The notes under the pieces were generated by a model. That model was not told the origin of the DNA. It saw nothing but the letters and a program-made list of their open reading frames with translations, and did no database searches. From NCBI RefSeq assembly GCF_044324875.1, contig NZ_CP172185.1: 64,000 bases of DNA; one strand, given 5' to 3'. The position numbers and the translations under genes are program-made. Shown here piece after piece: positions 14,504 to 64,000 of this stretch (positions within the stretch are counted from its first letter, which is position 1; every line of letters starts with the position of its first letter). Origin of the DNA: Escherichia coli. GTDB taxonomy: Bacteria > Pseudomonadota > Gammaproteobacteria > Enterobacterales > Enterobacteriaceae.

Positions 14504-14730
14504 TCACTCTTCGTTCTTTCTGAGCATTGCGTTCAGGATGGTCAGCAATTTACGCATACAGTCAACCAGCGCCACTTTTTTGGTTTTTCCGGCTGCTGGC
14601 AGATGCATGTAAAACGCCTCTATCACCGGATTAAACCAGGTTACCACAAGCGCTGCCATGTGCAGGGCTGCTCTTGCCTCCGTATGCGCACTGGCGTCGT
14701 TCGGCCAGCAGATATGTGTGGGATAACAGG
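14504..14730 (-). pseudogene. IS110-family transposase 3' remnant (C-terminal ~75 codons only)
   Basis: minus-strand translation ...[53 protein letters not shown] matches the conserved C-terminal motif of IS110-family transposases; frame closed by a stop ~75 codons upstream of the motif; the plus-strand ORF 14486..14779 is antisense to it. Confidence 0.5.
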
Positions 14731-14840
14731 GATGTTATGTGAACTGAACTGTGTTTTGTTAGCGGGGGATGTTTATTGATGATTCGGGAGTGTTTAAGAC
14801 CTGATGGCGTTATGCTCCCAAGTTTATTTTATATAAAGAT

Positions 14841-14870
14841 CCAAAAGCAAAAACCCGCCTTGTGGGCGGG
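14841..14870 (-). terminator. Rho-independent terminator-like hairpin
   Basis: CCCGCC-5 nt loop-GGCGGG stem followed on the minus strand by TTTTTGCTTTTGG. Confidence 0.55.
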
Positions 14871-14884
14871 TTCTTAAGAATTAG

Positions 14885-59907: not shown

Positions 59908-62900
59908 ATGAATAAAGTTTATTCCCTTCGCTACAGCGCTGTGGCCCGGGGCTTTATTGCTGTATCTGAGTTTGCGAGGAAATGTGTTCATAAGTCTGTC
60001 AGAGGCCTGAGTTTTCCGGTTTTATTACTGTCCCCCGTACTTTTCTCTACAGGAGGCCTTGCGGGAACAGTCAATAATGAACTTGGCTATCAGTCATTTC
60101 GTGATTTTGCTGAGAATAAAGGTATGTTCCGCCCGGGAGCAACGAATATCGCCATTTATAATAAGCAGGGAGAGCTTGTCGGCACGCTGGAAAAAGCGGC
60201 TATGCCGGATTTCAGTTCCGTAAATTCAGGAAGCGGTGTGGCGACACTAATTAACCCGCAGTATATCGCCAGCGTGAAACATAACGGGGGATATACAAAC
60301 GTCAGCTTTGGTTATGGTGAAAGCCGTTACAATATCGTGGACCGGAATAATGCGCCGTCACTGGATTTTCATGCTCCCAGACTGGATAAACTGGTGACAG
60401 AGGTTGCCCCGGCTGCGGTGACGGCGCAAGGGGCAGTGGCTGGCGCATATCTGGATAAGGAACGTTATCCTGTTTTTTATCGTCTTGGCTCCGGAACCCA
60501 GTATATTAAGGACAGTAACGGACAGCTGACACAAATGGGAGGAGCATATTCCTGGCTGACTGGCGGGACTGTCGGTAGTCTGTCATCCTATCAGAATGGA
60601 GAAATGATTAGCACCAGTTCAGGTCTGGTTTTTGATTACAAACTTAATGGTGCAATGCCCATTTATGGCGAGGCCGGTGACAGTGGTTCGCCTTTATTTG
60701 CTTTTGATACTGTTCAGAATACATGGGTTCTTGTTGGTGTTCTCTCTGCGGGGAATGGAGCGGGGGGCAGGGGAAATAACTGGGCTGTTATTCCACTGGA
60801 TTTTATCAGACAAAAATTTAATGAGGACAATGATGCCCCGGTCACATTCAGAACATCGGAAGGTGGTGCGCTGGAGTGGGGCTTTAACAGCAGCACCGGA
60901 GCTGGCACGCTGACACAGGGAACCACCACATATGCCATGCACGGGCAGCAGGGAAATGACCTGAATGCCGGTAAAAATCTGATATTTCTGGGACAGAATG
61001 GACAGATTGACCTGAAAGACAATGTTGCACAGGGGGCAGGTTCTCTGACATTCCATAATGATTATACGGTTGCAACTTCAAACAACAGTACCTGGACCGG
61101 TGCCGGTATTATTGTGGATAAAGGCGTGTTCGTAAACTGGCAGGTTAACGGTGTTAAAGGCGATAACCTGCATAAGATTGGTGAAGGTACGCTGACGATA
61201 CAGGGCACGGGTATCAATGAGGGTGGTCTGAAGGCCGGGGACGGAACCGTTGTTCTGAAACAGCAGGCAGACAGTAACGGGCAGGTGCAGGCCTTCAGTA
61301 GTGTGAATATTGCCAGCGGACGACCGACAGTAGTGCTGACTGATGACCGGCAGGTAAATCCGGATAACATCTCCTGGGGATACAGGGGAGGTATTCTGGA
61401 TGTTAACGGTAATGATATTGGCTTTCACGAAATAAAGGCGGCAGATTATGGTGCTCAAATCCACAATGGCAGTAACAAAAATGCAATAATCTCTCTGGTT
61501 ATGCATGATGCCATTAAGTGGACCGGGAAAGATACACCAAGAATTTTAGGTCGGGTTTATGAGTATTTCAATGATGAAACGCAGAAGACTGAATTCTTTA
61601 TATTAAAAACCAGCAGTATTGCGTGGTCTCCTTCGCCTGGAGAAAAAATTTTTCCGGATATGTTCAGAGGTGCTGATTATTTTAATACTCTTGAGGATGC
61701 GGACAAAGAGGCCAGAAAAAATACACAATATATTTTCCATGGTAAATTAACCGGTAATATCAGTTTTAACCCGAAGAGTGCCGGTACGTTTGTTATGGAT
61801 GGTTCTGCTGATATGTCCGGAACCTTCACCCGGGAAAACGGGCGTCTGACACTGCAGGGTCATCCGGTTATCCATGCATACAATACACAGTCTGTGGCTG
61901 ACAAACTTGCTGCCAGTGGAGACCATTCGGTTTTGAATCAGCCCACGTCATTCAGTCAGGAGGACTGGGAGAATCGCAGTTTTACCTTTGACAGACTGTC
62001 ACTGAAGAACACCGATTTTGGCCTTGGCCGTAATGCCATGCTGAACACCACGCTTGAAGCAACAGATTCGACTGTCACACTGGGCGACAGCCGGGTCTTT
62101 ATTGACAAAAACGACGGTAACGGTACGGCTTTTACGCTGGAAGAAGGCACATCAGAAGCGGTGAAGGATGCAGACCGTAGCGTGTTTAATGGCAGTGCTG
62201 TTCTGTACGGGAAGACGACGCTGGATATCATGAACGCAACCTTTAATGGTGATATCAGCGGTCATGCCGGCTCGCATGTGGAGTTGTCGCGCCGGAGTCA
62301 CTGGAATATGACGAAAAGCTCCACGCTGGATTCGTTCAGAAGCAAAGGCGGGACGCTCTCCTTTGTGACAGACAACTGGTCGCCGAAAACGCTGACGGTA
62401 AACACACTGCATGCCAGCAGTATGAATATCGCCATGGGGGTCAGCACCGCCGACAACACGGGCGACCGGATTGATATCCTGAATAAGGCAACGGGGGGAC
62501 ATAACACACTGGACCTGTCCTCCCTGTTTGATCAGACTGTCACACTGAAAAATGACCTGACTCTGGCATCTGCACCGGTCGGAACTTCTCACGGGTACTT
62601 CTCCTTTGCCAGCCTGAACAGGGGGTTTACTGTTTATACCCCTGACACACAGGTGCAGGAGAAAGACGGCAGAGTTTACTGGCAACTGAAAAATAACGCT
62701 GGTCTGGCGGACTCACAGGCACAACCGGTATCGGAAAATGAAATCCGGAAGGTTGCGGCGGATGGTGATAGTGGTAACAACCGCGCGGATGAATCTGGTT
62801 CCGCTGTTTCCGGAAAGAACTCAGAGGTTACCGTGAAAGGCAGTTCCCTGTTTAAAGGGGCAGATAGCATATATCTTCTGAAGAAGGCGCGAACCATGTT

Positions 62901-63732
62901 TGCCGCCCGTGAGTTCATTCTCAGTGACAGTGCTGACCGCTGGACACAGGTGGTGGATAACAGTGATGCAGACGGCGGTGCATGGGCTATGACAGGGTAC
63001 AGTCATGGTGGATATGACGACTTCAGCCTGAATCAGAGCGGACTGAATGTGGGATTCCGCCACTCTTCTGCCGGTAATGCCTGGTGGGGGATGGGGATAG
63101 AGTTTTACCGGGGGCACAGCAGCACAGATGACTACCGGGATGATTTCAGCCTGTGGGGAGTGCATGTTCTGGCGGGCAAATCCTTTGCCGCTGGTCTGTT
63201 TGTGGATGGTATGACCGGATACCGGGAGCTGTCTGAAGATTACACTATTCAGGGAGAGCTGAGTGACCTGTCCGGCAGGGCAAAAAGTCATATCCTGACA
63301 GCGGGTATCCGTGGTGGGTGGAAGATGCATGCATCCCCCCTTGATATGTCGATAACACCGACTGTTTCACTGAACGGTGCCCGGGTGGACGGAAATCGTC
63401 TGCAGGGCCGGGAGCGGAGCGTGGAGCTTTATGATGGCGATGCCCTGTGGCTGAAAGCCGGGTTTGAGGCAGAAAAAGTATCCGGAAATATGACGCTGAA
63501 GGCAGGTATCTGGCGGAATATCACTCTGAAGGATATGCCCGGAATGACCCTGCGTGATGACTGGAAAGCCCGTCACTATGATGCAGAGAAGGCTGACCGC
63601 TATACCGTTTCGTTTGGTATCAACGGAAAGCTGACAGAGAAACTGTCAGTGCAGGCGAAAGTAAACAGCAGTTTTGATGGTTACTTTAAGACGGATGCGG
63701 AAGGAATACTGGGTATCAGGTATTCCTTCTGA
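59908..63732 (+). CDS. serine-protease autotransporter, SPATE-like passenger with non-canonical C-terminal translocator
   Basis: extended signal peptide MNKVYSLRYS...; catalytic His (VKHNGG), Asp (DFHAPRL), Ser (GDSGSP); Pic/Tsh-like central passenger blocks; C-terminus ends RYSF but lacks the SPATE linker motif NLNKRMGDLRD. Confidence 0.85.
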   Translation: MNKVYSLRYSAVARGFIAVSEFARKCVHKSVRGLSFPVLLLSPVLFSTGGLAGTVNNELGYQSFRDFAENKGMFRPGATNIAIYNKQGELVGTLEKAAMPDFSSVNSGSGVATLINPQYIASVKHNGGYTNVSFGYGESRYNIVDRNNAPSLDFHAPRLDKLVTEVAPAAVTAQGAVAGAYLDKERYPVFYRLGSGTQYIKDSNGQLTQMGGAYSWLTGGTVGSLSSYQNGEMISTSSGLVFDYKLNGAMPIYGEAGDSGSPLFAFDTVQNTWVLVGVLSAGNGAGGRGNNWAVIPLDFIRQKFNEDNDAPVTFRTSEGGALEWGFNSSTGAGTLTQGTTTYAMHGQQGNDLNAGKNLIFLGQNGQIDLKDNVAQGAGSLTFHNDYTVATSNNSTWTGAGIIVDKGVFVNWQVNGVKGDNLHKIGEGTLTIQGTGINEGGLKAGDGTVVLKQQADSNGQVQAFSSVNIASGRPTVVLTDDRQVNPDNISWGYRGGILDVNGNDIGFHEIKAADYGAQIHNGSNKNAIISLVMHDAIKWTGKDTPRILGRVYEYFNDETQKTEFFILKTSSIAWSPSPGEKIFPDMFRGADYFNTLEDADKEARKNTQYIFHGKLTGNISFNPKSAGTFVMDGSADMSGTFTRENGRLTLQGHPVIHAYNTQSVADKLAASGDHSVLNQPTSFSQEDWENRSFTFDRLSLKNTDFGLGRNAMLNTTLEATDSTVTLGDSRVFIDKNDGNGTAFTLEEGTSEAVKDADRSVFNGSAVLYGKTTLDIMNATFNGDISGHAGSHVELSRRSHWNMTKSSTLDSFRSKGGTLSFVTDNWSPKTLTVNTLHASSMNIAMGVSTADNTGDRIDILNKATGGHNTLDLSSLFDQTVTLKNDLTLASAPVGTSHGYFSFASLNRGFTVYTPDTQVQEKDGRVYWQLKNNAGLADSQAQPVSENEIRKVAADGDSGNNRADESGSAVSGKNSEVTVKGSSLFKGADSIYLLKKARTMFAAREFILSDSADRWTQVVDNSDADGGAWAMTGYSHGGYDDFSLNQSGLNVGFRHSSAGNAWWGMGIEFYRGHSSTDDYRDDFSLWGVHVLAGKSFAAGLFVDGMTGYRELSEDYTIQGELSDLSGRAKSHILTAGIRGGWKMHASPLDMSITPTVSLNGARVDGNRLQGRERSVELYDGDALWLKAGFEAEKVSGNMTLKAGIWRNITLKDMPGMTLRDDWKARHYDAEKADRYTVSFGINGKLTEKLSVQAKVNSSFDGYFKTDAEGILGIRYSF

Positions 63733-63849
63733 TAACAGCCATCGATGATGCTGCAGAGAGAAGGAGGGGTAGAATATAGCCCCTCCGGTGAGCCGGACGT
63801 AAGAGTGTACTGACTCCAAAAAGTTGGACAGTTGTAGTTGAGCACAAAA

Positions 63850-64000
63850 TCAGGACACCGGGATAACCTGTTTCCACTTTTCTTCATGTAGCCAAGGCGG
63901 TAAACCATCGTTGTTCGTGTGAGGTCGATAAACGTTATAATAACCATTAATCCACTGGTTTATATCGCGTACCGCATGGCTAAAATCACCATACCACCTT
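63850..64000 (-). pseudogene. DDE transposase C-terminal fragment (5' part beyond window edge)
   Basis: minus-strand frame ...INQWINGYYNVYRPHTNNDGLPPWLHEEKWKQVIPVS* shows a YN..RPH integrase-core terminus; family undetermined. Confidence 0.35.

What the first reader, a model, noticed from the sequence alone, without database searches (positions are those of the whole stretch)
14504..64000. At least five IS families plus remnants concentrated in the accessory region
IS110 remnant, IS66-family, IS150-like, an OrfA remnant, IS256-family/IS1414, IS2 and a terminal DDE fragment occur within about 50 kb. Several lack target duplications, which explains the mosaic juxtaposition of prophage, metabolic, adhesin, toxin and backbone-like blocks and flags likely instability and assembly risk.
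Basis: seen in the sequence. Interest (0 to 1): 0.3.

Follow-up and report, generated by a model that had tools for sequence, protein, structure and literature searches.

The report
IS-rich mosaic island at pheV
The flagged 50 kb is an ordinary E. coli pathogenicity-type island next to the capsule genes, littered with ten insertion-sequence copies and fragments from four families; this is textbook island architecture, not a new phenomenon.

Summary

Three elements are complete:
- ISEc8, 32427-34868
- an unnamed IS150-like element, 35087-36501
- IS2, 47346-48676

IS1414 (39903-41178) has one degenerate or truncated end. The other six are fragments.

They belong to four ISfinder families (IS110, IS66, IS3, IS256), not "at least five". 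IS150-like, IS2 and the terminal fragment are all IS3 family, and the OrfA remnant is IS66 family. IS-derived DNA is about 7.8 kb, or 16% of the region.

The target-duplication claim is half right. ISEc8 (AGATATTG) and the IS150-like element (TCAA) are clean simple insertions, each with an empty site in other genomes. IS2 and IS1414 have no duplication.

Comparison with five complete genomes puts rearrangement breakpoints exactly at the IS1414, IS2 and IS150-like termini. So IS elements explain some block junctions, but not all:
- The capsule/island junction is a pheV tRNA attachment-site repeat.
- The "prophage" block is a patchwork made by homologous recombination, with no IS involved.

Every IS junction is backed by another complete assembly or by a perfect duplication, so there is no sign of misassembly. 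Verdict: real, ordinary and already known.

The parts
14505..14687 (-). IS110-family transposase C-terminal fragment (about 60 aa). It lies in the conserved kpsF-pheV spacer, outside the island.
   Evidence: NF033542 positions 282-342 of 343, E=2.6e-8. PGAP annotates 'IS110 family transposase, incomplete' at the same place in strains 300033 and FEX669. Pfam gave no hit.
14885..14906 (-). 3'-terminal 22 nt of tRNA-Phe (pheV) with a 1-nt deletion. This is the distal attachment-site repeat marking the island boundary.
   Evidence: The alignment to island-free strain 300033 ends here, inside its tRNA-Phe. ARAGORN finds no intact tRNA in the window.
32427..34868 (+). ISEc8 (IS66 family), 2442 bp, complete. 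It encodes tnpA, tnpB and tnpC, has GTAAGCGTACAGC... inverted repeats, and is flanked by an 8-bp duplication AGATATTG (32419-32426 and 34869-34876).
   Evidence: Pfam HTH_Tnp_1, TnpB_IS66 and DDE_Tnp_IS66 (E=9e-107); NF033517. 99.96% identical to the PGAP-named ISEc8 in GF4. Duplication read. Empty site in ECCNB12-2. None of 5,426 complete genomes has this junction.
35026..36694 (+). IS66-family 5' remnant (inverted repeat plus the start of tnpA). It is in two pieces, 35026-35086 and 36506-36694, split by the IS150-like insertion.
   Evidence: 70% nt identity to the left end of an ISEc23-type element. HTH_Tnp_1 E=9.9e-9. 93-96% nt identity to annotated IS66-like tnpA in other genomes. The uninterrupted 342-bp form is present at 100% identity (e.g. 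AR_0085) and at 80% coverage or more in 369 genomes.
35087..36501 (-). Unnamed IS3-family element of the IS150 group, 1415 bp, complete. It has a 166-aa OrfA, an OrfB reached by a -1 frameshift at GAAAAAG, TG...CA ends, and a 4-bp duplication TCAA (35083-35086 and 36502-36505).
   Evidence: Sequence read. HTH_28, HTH_Tnp_1, rve and rve_2; NF033516 E=4e-100. 56% aa identity to IS150 OrfB. 100% identical to the TUM9803 copy, which PGAP annotates as intact with a programmed frameshift. Empty site in 369 genomes. A full copy is present in only 13 of 5,426 genomes.
39903..41178 (-). IS1414 (IS256 family) with a 401-aa transposase. The inverted repeat at 41178 is intact. The other terminal 38-39 bp are replaced or degenerate, and there is no 8-bp duplication. 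An intact astA (EAST1) ORF is embedded at about 40275-40391 (-).
   Evidence: Transposase_mut E=9e-120; NF033543. PGAP names it IS1414 at the same locus in ECCNB12-2, GF4 and TUM9803. Ends were compared with a full 1315-bp copy flanked by TTTGGTTG. EAST1 peptide found.
47346..48676 (-). IS2 (IS3 family), 1331 bp, complete with both ends. The flanks are CGATG and CTCCC, so there is no 5-bp duplication.
   Evidence: Sequence read. NF006918 IS2 TnpB scores 700 bits against a cut-off of 597. OrfA has HTH_Tnp_1 and OrfB has rve. The right flank continues into unrelated DNA in AR_0085.
57119..57204 (+). 86-bp IS2-like remnant. A 22-nt IS2 left-end repeat is joined directly to about 65 nt of the other IS2 end. 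There is no duplication.
   Evidence: Inverted-repeat pairs I2 and I5 with the IS2 termini, 95% and 75% complementary. Sequence read. Weak IS2 OrfB C-terminal tblastn hit.
57236..57664 (-). IS3-family 5' remnant: an inverted repeat starting TGTACC... at 57664, plus the HTH part of a decayed orfA.
   Evidence: 85% nt identity to the 5' end of an annotated IS3-family element in strain 23CRST012. tblastn to the IS150-like OrfA, E=1.6e-4. HTH_28 E=1.9e-4, below cut-off.
59659..59831 (+). IS150-like orfB 3' remnant lying immediately upstream of the SPATE gene, with the terminal repeat lost.
   Evidence: tblastn to OrfB residues 223-279, 39% identity, E=2.4e-7. A 119-nt inverted match at 77% to 35127-35245. 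Sequence read.
63806..64000 (-). IS3-family 3' end (end of orfB plus the inverted repeat TGTACTGACTCC...), cut off by the window edge. It is a 194-284 bp remnant in related genomes.
   Evidence: NF033516 positions 333-365 of 369, E=1.4e-5. PGAP annotates 'IS3-like element ISKpn37 family transposase, incomplete' in AR_0085. The same fragment lies next to an S6 peptidase on plasmid pCRST010. End located.

Best explanation
Window 14907-64000 is the distal part of a tRNA-associated genomic (pathogenicity-type) island. It is integrated at pheV, next to the group-2 capsule locus.

Its cargo, in order, is:
- a CP4-like module;
- a LacI/PTS/split-transketolase operon;
- a YadA-like adhesin with a sigma-like regulator;
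- a diverged yaiOXPS-like block;
- a TRAP-transporter fragment;
- a sodC/ABC/ROK block;
- abgT and an Hbp/Tsh-like SPATE autotransporter.

The island has accumulated ten IS-derived sequences from four families. At least three processes built it.
1. Site-specific integration at pheV joined it to the capsule region. The tRNA repeat is shown; the integration event is inferred.
2. IS activity acted in two ways. ISEc8 and the IS150-like element are recent simple copy-in insertions with intact duplications, and they rearranged nothing (shown). IS1414 and IS2 lack duplications and sit exactly at junctions that differ between strains, so IS-associated deletion or IS-IS recombination joined or removed neighbouring blocks. 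The breakpoints are shown; the mechanism is inferred. The older nested fragments record earlier rounds of the same.
3. Homologous recombination between related islands shuffled alleles inside the conserved CP4-like module. It probably also moved the same cargo between selC (ECCNB12-2, TUM9803) and pheV (this window). The patchwork is shown; the transfer is inferred.
For: Island identity:
- The kps genes and the IS110 fragment are colinear with island-free strain 300033 up to the pheV 3' repeat.
- GC content varies between 38% and 60% from block to block.

IS inventory and families.

Simple insertions:
- The ISEc8 duplication and its empty site.
- The IS150-like duplication, with an exact empty site in 369 genomes.
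- The ISEc8 junction is absent from all 5,426 complete genomes, so the insertion is recent.

IS-linked breakpoints:
- 41178 in GF4.
- 48676 in GF4, AR_0085 and hits H29 and H30.
- 36501 in AR_0085.
- IS2 is truncated in TUM9803.
- Related genomes carry extra IS1414, ISEc8, IS421 and IS1 insertions in the same island.

Recombination patchwork in the CP4-like module.

The same cargo sits at selC in two genomes.

The literature describes IS-rich mosaic islands as a hallmark of pathogenicity islands (PMC7545054).
Against: - The integrase and the intact pheV end lie beyond the window, so the island was not seen whole.
- A missing duplication is only indirect evidence of rearrangement. The actual events (adjacent deletion, inter-IS recombination, or hybrid elements) were not reconstructed.
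- The AR_0085 junction at the IS150-like target site lacks the IS itself. Simple IS-mediated deletion does not predict that.
- The background IS density of this strain was not measured. The 1% figure is general knowledge for K-12.
Confidence: 0.85

Rival explanations
1. IS elements are the sole cause of the mosaic. Every block junction, from prophage-like to metabolic to adhesin to toxin to backbone-like, was made by IS-mediated transposition, deletion or recombination.
For: IS copies or remnants lie at most cargo-block boundaries: 32.4-36.7 kb, 39.9-41.2 kb, 47.3-48.7 kb, 57.1-57.7 kb, 59.7 kb and 63.8 kb. Breakpoints fall at IS termini in other genomes.
Against: - The kps/island junction is a tRNA attachment repeat.
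- No IS trace was found at the CP4-like/PTS boundary or inside the CP4-like patchwork.
- The two best-preserved elements have duplications and exact empty sites.
Confidence: 0.1
2. The IS elements are passive passengers. They accumulate in the island because insertions there are tolerated, and the block structure was produced entirely by integrase-mediated and homologous recombination between related islands.
For: - The ISEc8 and IS150-like insertions are neutral simple insertions.
- The CP4-like module shows recombination without IS.
- The same cargo occurs at selC, pheV and other sites.
Against: - Breakpoints fall to the base pair on the IS1414, IS2 and IS150-like termini in independent genomes.
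- IS2 has unrelated flanks and no duplication.
- The block between IS1414 and IS2 is present or absent as a unit.
Confidence: 0.15
3. Some IS junctions are assembly artefacts: collapsed or mis-joined multicopy IS2, IS1414 or ISEc8 copies.
For: These IS types are multicopy across E. coli. ISEc8-like sequence occurs in 3,513 genomes, with up to 22 places per genome. IS2 has no duplication. The ISEc8 junction is unique to this window.
Against: - The IS1414 and IS2 junctions lie inside a 25.5-kb block that is 99.8% identical to ECCNB12-2, and they recur in TUM9803.
- The IS150-like junctions recur in ECCNB12-2 and TUM9803 (and one in GF4).
- ISEc8 has a perfect 8-bp duplication with a matching empty site, which a mis-join would not produce.
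Confidence: 0.04

Closest known systems
tRNA-associated mosaic pathogenicity islands of extraintestinal E. coli (the pheV and selC islands of UPEC and APEC, e.g. PAI-CFT073-pheV, PAI I APEC-O1, SHI-2)
   Same: It sits next to a tRNA gene repeat. GC content is heterogeneous. The cargo includes adhesin, SPATE and metabolic genes. There are many complete and partial IS elements, and the structure is mosaic (review PMC7545054). IMT5155-type islands (hits H4-H8) share the PTS-transketolase module.
   Different: This gene order, with ISEc8 at 32427, occurs in none of 5,426 complete genomes. The closest relatives carry the cargo at selC, not pheV. Links to named islands such as PAI I APEC-O1 or CFT073 c3405-10 rest on my memory and were not tested.
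ISEc8 (IS66 family)
   Same: It is 2442 bp with tnpA, tnpB and tnpC, has an 8-bp duplication, and is 99.96% identical to a PGAP-named ISEc8.
   Different: Nothing differs except the insertion site, which is unique here.
IS150 (IS3 family, IS150 group)
   Same: It has two ORFs with a -1 frameshift at an A-rich heptamer, an rve DDE domain, TG...CA ends, and a short (4-bp) duplication.
   Different: OrfB is only 56% identical to IS150 OrfB. PGAP gives it no element name. It is rare, with full copies in 13 of 5,426 genomes, on both plasmids and chromosomes.
IS1414 (IS256 family) carrying astA/EAST1
   Same: It has a Mutator-type transposase, carries an embedded EAST1 ORF, and is 99.8% identical to named copies.
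   Different: One terminus (38-39 bp) does not match the full 1315-bp copy, and there is no 8-bp duplication.
IS2 (IS3 family, IS2 group)
   Same: It is 1331 bp with OrfA and OrfB. It matches the NCBIfam IS2 TnpB model above the cut-off, and both terminal repeats are present.
   Different: It lacks the 5-bp duplication of a simple insertion.

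Membership tests
IS66 family (ISEc8) | Three ORFs, tnpA, tnpB and tnpC, with a DDE_Tnp_IS66 transposase | tested here: met
   PF01527, PF05717 and PF03050 (E=9e-107); NF033517 at 457 bits against a cut-off of 180.
IS66 family (ISEc8) | Terminal inverted repeats and an 8-bp target duplication | tested here: met
   The inverted repeats are pair I4 at 32421-32448 and 34847-34874. AGATATTG lies on both sides, and ECCNB12-2 has the empty site.
IS3 family, IS150 group (element 35087-36501) | OrfA (HTH) and OrfB (rve DDE) in the 0 and -1 frames with a slippery A-rich site | tested here: met
   Domains. GAAAAAG lies at the OrfA/OrfB overlap. An identical copy is annotated 'programmed frameshift' in TUM9803.
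IS3 family, IS150 group (element 35087-36501) | TG...CA imperfect inverted repeats and a 3-4 bp duplication | tested here: met
   The ends are TGTACTGCGCCCC... and ...GGGGCGCACTTCA, with TCAA on both sides. An exact empty site occurs in 369 genomes.
IS3 family, IS150 group (element 35087-36501) | Closest named relatives are IS150-group elements | tested here: met
   56% aa identity to PGAP-named IS150 OrfB and 54.6% to ISKpn8, against 25% to the IS2 OrfB in this window. ISfinder itself was not available.
IS256 family (IS1414) | A single Mutator-type DDE transposase | tested here: met
   PF00872 E=9e-120; NF033543 at 429 bits against a cut-off of 150.
IS256 family (IS1414) | Both terminal inverted repeats and an 8-9 bp duplication | tested here: not met
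   Only the 41178 end matches the full copy. The other 38-39 bp differ, and the flanks do not repeat. So it is a member by sequence but a defective, non-simple insertion.
IS3 family, IS2 group (IS2) | A 1331-bp element with OrfA, OrfB and IS2 terminal repeats | tested here: met
   NF006918 covers the full 301 of 301 positions at 700 bits.
IS3 family, IS2 group (IS2) | The 5-bp duplication expected of a simple insertion | tested here: not met
   The flanks are CGATG and CTCCC. This bears on insertion history, not on family membership.
IS110 family | A DEDD N-terminal catalytic domain plus the Transposase_20 C-terminal domain | tested here: inconclusive
   Only the last 60 or so residues survive, matching NF033542 positions 282-342 of 343 at E=2.6e-8, below the cut-off. 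Pfam gave no hit. PGAP calls it an IS110 fragment.
Pathogenicity / genomic island (Hacker criteria) | Insertion next to a tRNA gene with a flanking direct repeat | tested here: met
   A 22-nt pheV 3' repeat at 14885-14906, where colinearity with an island-free strain ends.
Pathogenicity / genomic island (Hacker criteria) | An integrase gene at the tRNA-proximal end | not testable with these tools
   That end lies beyond base 64000.
Pathogenicity / genomic island (Hacker criteria) | Deviating or heterogeneous GC content, mobility genes and virulence-type cargo | tested here: met
   GC ranges from 0.38 to 0.60 by block. There are ten IS-derived loci. The cargo includes a YadA-like adhesin, a SPATE closest to Hbp/Tsh and an EAST1 ORF.

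The most novel reading that the evidence does not exclude
The roughly 45-kb cargo (from the CP4-like module to the SPATE) sits at selC in the two closest genomes and at pheV here. It may have been relocated as a block by homologous recombination inside the conserved CP4-like module shared by different tRNA islands. In that case inter-island recombination, not IS or integrase activity, would be the main route by which virulence cargo changes chromosomal address. A secondary point is that the 1415-bp IS150-like element is a rare, currently mobile IS with no PGAP element name.
Probability: 0.45. Interest if true: 0.25.

Novelty: already known. Interest (0 to 1): 0.12.

Why it matters
The main value is for annotation and quality control.
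- The report gives base-accurate ends, duplications and intactness for every IS in the island.
- It corrects the family count from five to four.
- It shows which junctions are simple insertions and which are rearrangement scars.
- It finds no sign of misassembly.

Biologically it restates the textbook picture. ExPEC and APEC islands are mosaics built by tRNA-site integration, IS activity and homologous recombination, and they remain fluid. Related strains differ by IS1414, ISEc8, IS421 and IS1 insertions, and by loss of the IS1414-to-IS2 block.

Tried and rejected
1. tkt1 island lead. The transketolase here is a split two-subunit enzyme in a PTS operon. tkt1 is a single 1998-bp gene on a 16-kb metE-ysgA island without mobility genes (PMC3349570 and PMC12928451). 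Rejected.

2. The SPATE is Vat. It is 1274 aa, is named only 'S6 family peptidase' in databases, and is closest to solved Hbp/Tsh. Vat identity was not established.

3. abgT-SPATE as a composite transposon flanked by two copies of one IS3-family element. A full element 85% identical to the 57.2-57.66 kb remnant shows no similarity to the 63.8-64.0 kb fragment. Not supported.

4. Inversion between IS2 and the mini-IS2. The flanking pentamers do not match in either orientation. Rejected.

5. The mini-IS2 as a multicopy MITE. Only the same locus and a few weak hits were found. Rejected.

6. A Pfam scan of all open stretches of 28 aa or more, in six frames, across 10.8 kb of intergenic DNA. It found no further transposase families, only AlpA, ProQ, YebF and the known remnants.

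7. Rfam found nothing in the window, and there is no intact tRNA.

8. ISfinder naming was not possible. PGAP names in related genomes were used instead.

Full report
**Context**

The window is E. coli chromosome.
- Bases 1-13730 are a group-2 capsule (kps) locus. It is colinear at 99.9% with strain 300033 up to base 14906.
- In strain 300033 the order is kpsF, an IS110-family fragment, tRNA-Phe (pheV), then yqgA.
- In the window the alignment stops inside the tRNA. Bases 14885-14906 are its last 22 nt with a 1-nt deletion, and ARAGORN finds no intact tRNA.
- So 14907-64000 is the distal part of an island integrated at pheV. The integrase end lies beyond the window.
- GC content swings between 0.38 and 0.60 from block to block.

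PGAP annotation of near-identical DNA in ECCNB12-2, GF4, AR_0085 and TUM9803 gives the cargo in this order:
- a CP4-like module (DUF4942, CbtA/YeeU, RadC, antirestriction, DUF932, GTPase, AlpA, ProQ);
- a LacI/PTS/split-transketolase operon;
- a YadA-like adhesin and a sigma-like regulator;
- a yaiO-yaiS-like block;
- an fhuD fragment and TRAP permeases;
- sodC, an ABC transporter, a phosphodiesterase and a ROK regulator;
- a yebF pseudogene;
- abgT and a 1274-aa S6 (SPATE) autotransporter.

**Checking the observation**

1. IS110 fragment, 14505-14687 (-). It matches NF033542 positions 282-342 of 343 at E=2.6e-8. Pfam was silent. It lies outside the island and is conserved in the kpsF-pheV spacer.
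2. ISEc8, 32427-34868. It has HTH_Tnp_1, TnpB_IS66 and DDE_Tnp_IS66 and is 99.96% identical to a named ISEc8.
3. IS150-like element, 35087-36501. OrfA carries an HTH and OrfB carries rve. A GAAAAAG slippery site links the frames. OrfB is 56% identical to IS150 OrfB. The element is 100% identical to a TUM9803 copy annotated as intact with a programmed frameshift.
4. The 'OrfA remnant' hits HTH_Tnp_1 at E=9.9e-9. It is the 5' end of a second IS66-family element, at 35026-35086 plus 36506-36694, split by the IS150-like insertion.
5. IS1414, 39903-41178. It carries an intact EAST1 ORF.
6. IS2, 47346-48676, 1331 bp.
7. An IS3-family 3' end, 63806-64000, which PGAP calls ISKpn37-like in AR_0085.

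Repeat finding, tblastn with the window's own transposases, and DNA searches added three remnants:
- an 86-bp IS2-like pair of ends at 57119-57204;
- an IS3-family 5' remnant at 57236-57664;
- an IS150-like orfB 3' remnant at 59659-59831.

A six-frame Pfam scan of 10.8 kb of intergenic DNA found no other transposase family.

By ISfinder's family scheme this is four families: IS110, IS66, IS3 and IS256. IS-derived DNA sums to about 7.8 kb, or 16% of the region. That is far above the roughly 1% of a K-12 chromosome (my own knowledge), and the adjacent capsule locus has none.

**Target duplications**

- ISEc8 is flanked by AGATATTG on both sides, and ECCNB12-2 has the matching empty site.
- The IS150-like element is flanked by TCAA. 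The reconstructed pre-insertion sequence occurs in 369 complete genomes, at 100% identity in AR_0085.
- IS2 is complete but flanked by CGATG and CTCCC.
- IS1414 matches a full 1315-bp copy, which has a TTTGGTTG duplication, except for its last 38-39 bp. Those bases are replaced or badly degenerate, and its flanks do not repeat.
- So two of the four large elements lack duplications, and the two best-preserved ones have them.

**What the IS elements did**

Local alignment against five related complete genomes places differences in three classes.

Simple IS gains. These include ISEc8 here, extra IS1414 copies in ECCNB12-2 with 8-bp duplications at window positions 35001-35008 and 63828-63835, ISEc8 inside the IS150-like element in GF4, and IS421 and IS1 in AR_0085.

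Rearrangement breakpoints lying exactly on IS termini:
- GF4 diverges at 41178|41179, the intact end of IS1414, and resumes, inverted, at 48676.
- AR_0085 and hits H29 and H30 begin the sodC-SPATE block at 48676|48677, the IS2 end.
- AR_0085 joins 26491 directly to the IS150-like target site at 36502.
- TUM9803 has IS2 truncated.

Block presence or absence. The block between IS1414 and IS2 holds a copy of the core yaiO-yaiS region that is about 91% identical to the core allele, plus fhuD' and TRAP permeases. It is present as a unit only here, in ECCNB12-2 and in TUM9803.

The ISEc8 junction is found in none of 5,426 complete genomes, so that insertion is recent.

**What the IS elements did not do**

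- The capsule/island junction is a tRNA attachment repeat.
- The CP4-like 'prophage' block contains no IS trace. Its best-matching genome switches every 0.5-2 kb. For example, GF4 is about 100% identical at 16.0-17.5 kb, while ECCNB12-2 is 100% identical at 22.5-24.0 kb where GF4 falls to 87-91%. That is the signature of homologous recombination between related islands.
- The same cargo sits at selC in ECCNB12-2 and TUM9803 and at other sites in GF4 and AR_0085. This is consistent with exchange through the conserved CP4-like module.
- No IS remnant marks the CP4-like/PTS boundary.

**Assembly risk**

- No IS occurs twice in the window. The longest internal repeat is 119 nt at 77%.
- The IS150-like, IS1414 and IS2 junctions recur in independent complete assemblies.
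- ISEc8 has a perfect duplication with a matching empty site.
Nothing here suggests a mis-join.

**Comparison with known systems**

IS-rich, tRNA-linked, mosaic islands are a defining picture of E. coli pathogenicity islands (review PMC7545054). Each IS is a member, or a fragment, of a described family; see the membership table. The only unnamed element is the IS150-like one. It is rare, with full copies in 13 of 5,426 genomes on plasmids and chromosomes, and it is apparently intact.

**Verdict**

Interest is low.

Noticed in passing
window 52378-52473: A perfect 48-bp tandem duplication spans the overlap between two ABC-permease genes. It duplicates the start-codon region of the downstream gene. 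ECCNB12-2 has it and AR_0085 does not.
   Followed up: partly
window 38316-38528 (YadA-like adhesin gene, 37495-39096): In-frame 99-bp repeats are present in 2.2 copies here and in more copies in ECCNB12-2 and AR_0085, so the adhesin stalk length varies between strains.
   Followed up: partly
window about 40275-40391 (-), inside IS1414: An intact 38-aa EAST1/astA-type ORF (MPSTQYIRRPASSYASCIWCATACASCHGRTTKPSLAT) is embedded in the IS1414 transposase gene in another frame.
   Followed up: partly
window 59908-63732: The 'toxin' is a 1274-aa S6/SPATE autotransporter that databases name only generically; the exact sequence is on 734 contigs. Its closest solved relatives are Hbp/Tsh, then Pic, SepA and EatA. 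It is about 100 aa shorter than Hbp/Tsh, a 1291-aa variant exists in AR_0085, and Vat identity was not shown. The same ISKpn37-like fragment lies 3' of an S6 peptidase on plasmid pCRST010.
   Followed up: partly
window 41308-44250: The yaiO/acetyltransferase/yaiP/yaiS block is a second copy of a core E. coli region, about 91% identical to the core allele found in about 4,900 genomes. This suggests capture from a diverged Escherichia lineage.
   Followed up: partly
L006 (AR_0085) 13290-13330, compared with window 26491 and 36502: AR_0085 joins the ProQ region directly to the IS150-like target site (TCAA...), although the IS itself is absent. Simple IS-mediated deletion does not predict this junction.
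   Followed up: no
window 56634-56984: A yebF-like pseudogene with an internal stop hits Pfam YebF at E=1.4e-20. It is 84% identical to a yebF region elsewhere in the AR_0085 island.
   Followed up: no
window 881-5641: Capsule region 2 is very AT-rich (GC 0.31-0.34). It encodes a 1137-aa HAD-family protein and a TPR protein. The K type was not determined.
   Followed up: no
window 44891-47218: The TRAP transporter small and large permease genes lack a periplasmic binding-protein gene. An fhuD/TroA-type pseudogene fragment precedes them. The block is therefore a truncated fragment that ends 127 bp before IS2.
   Followed up: no
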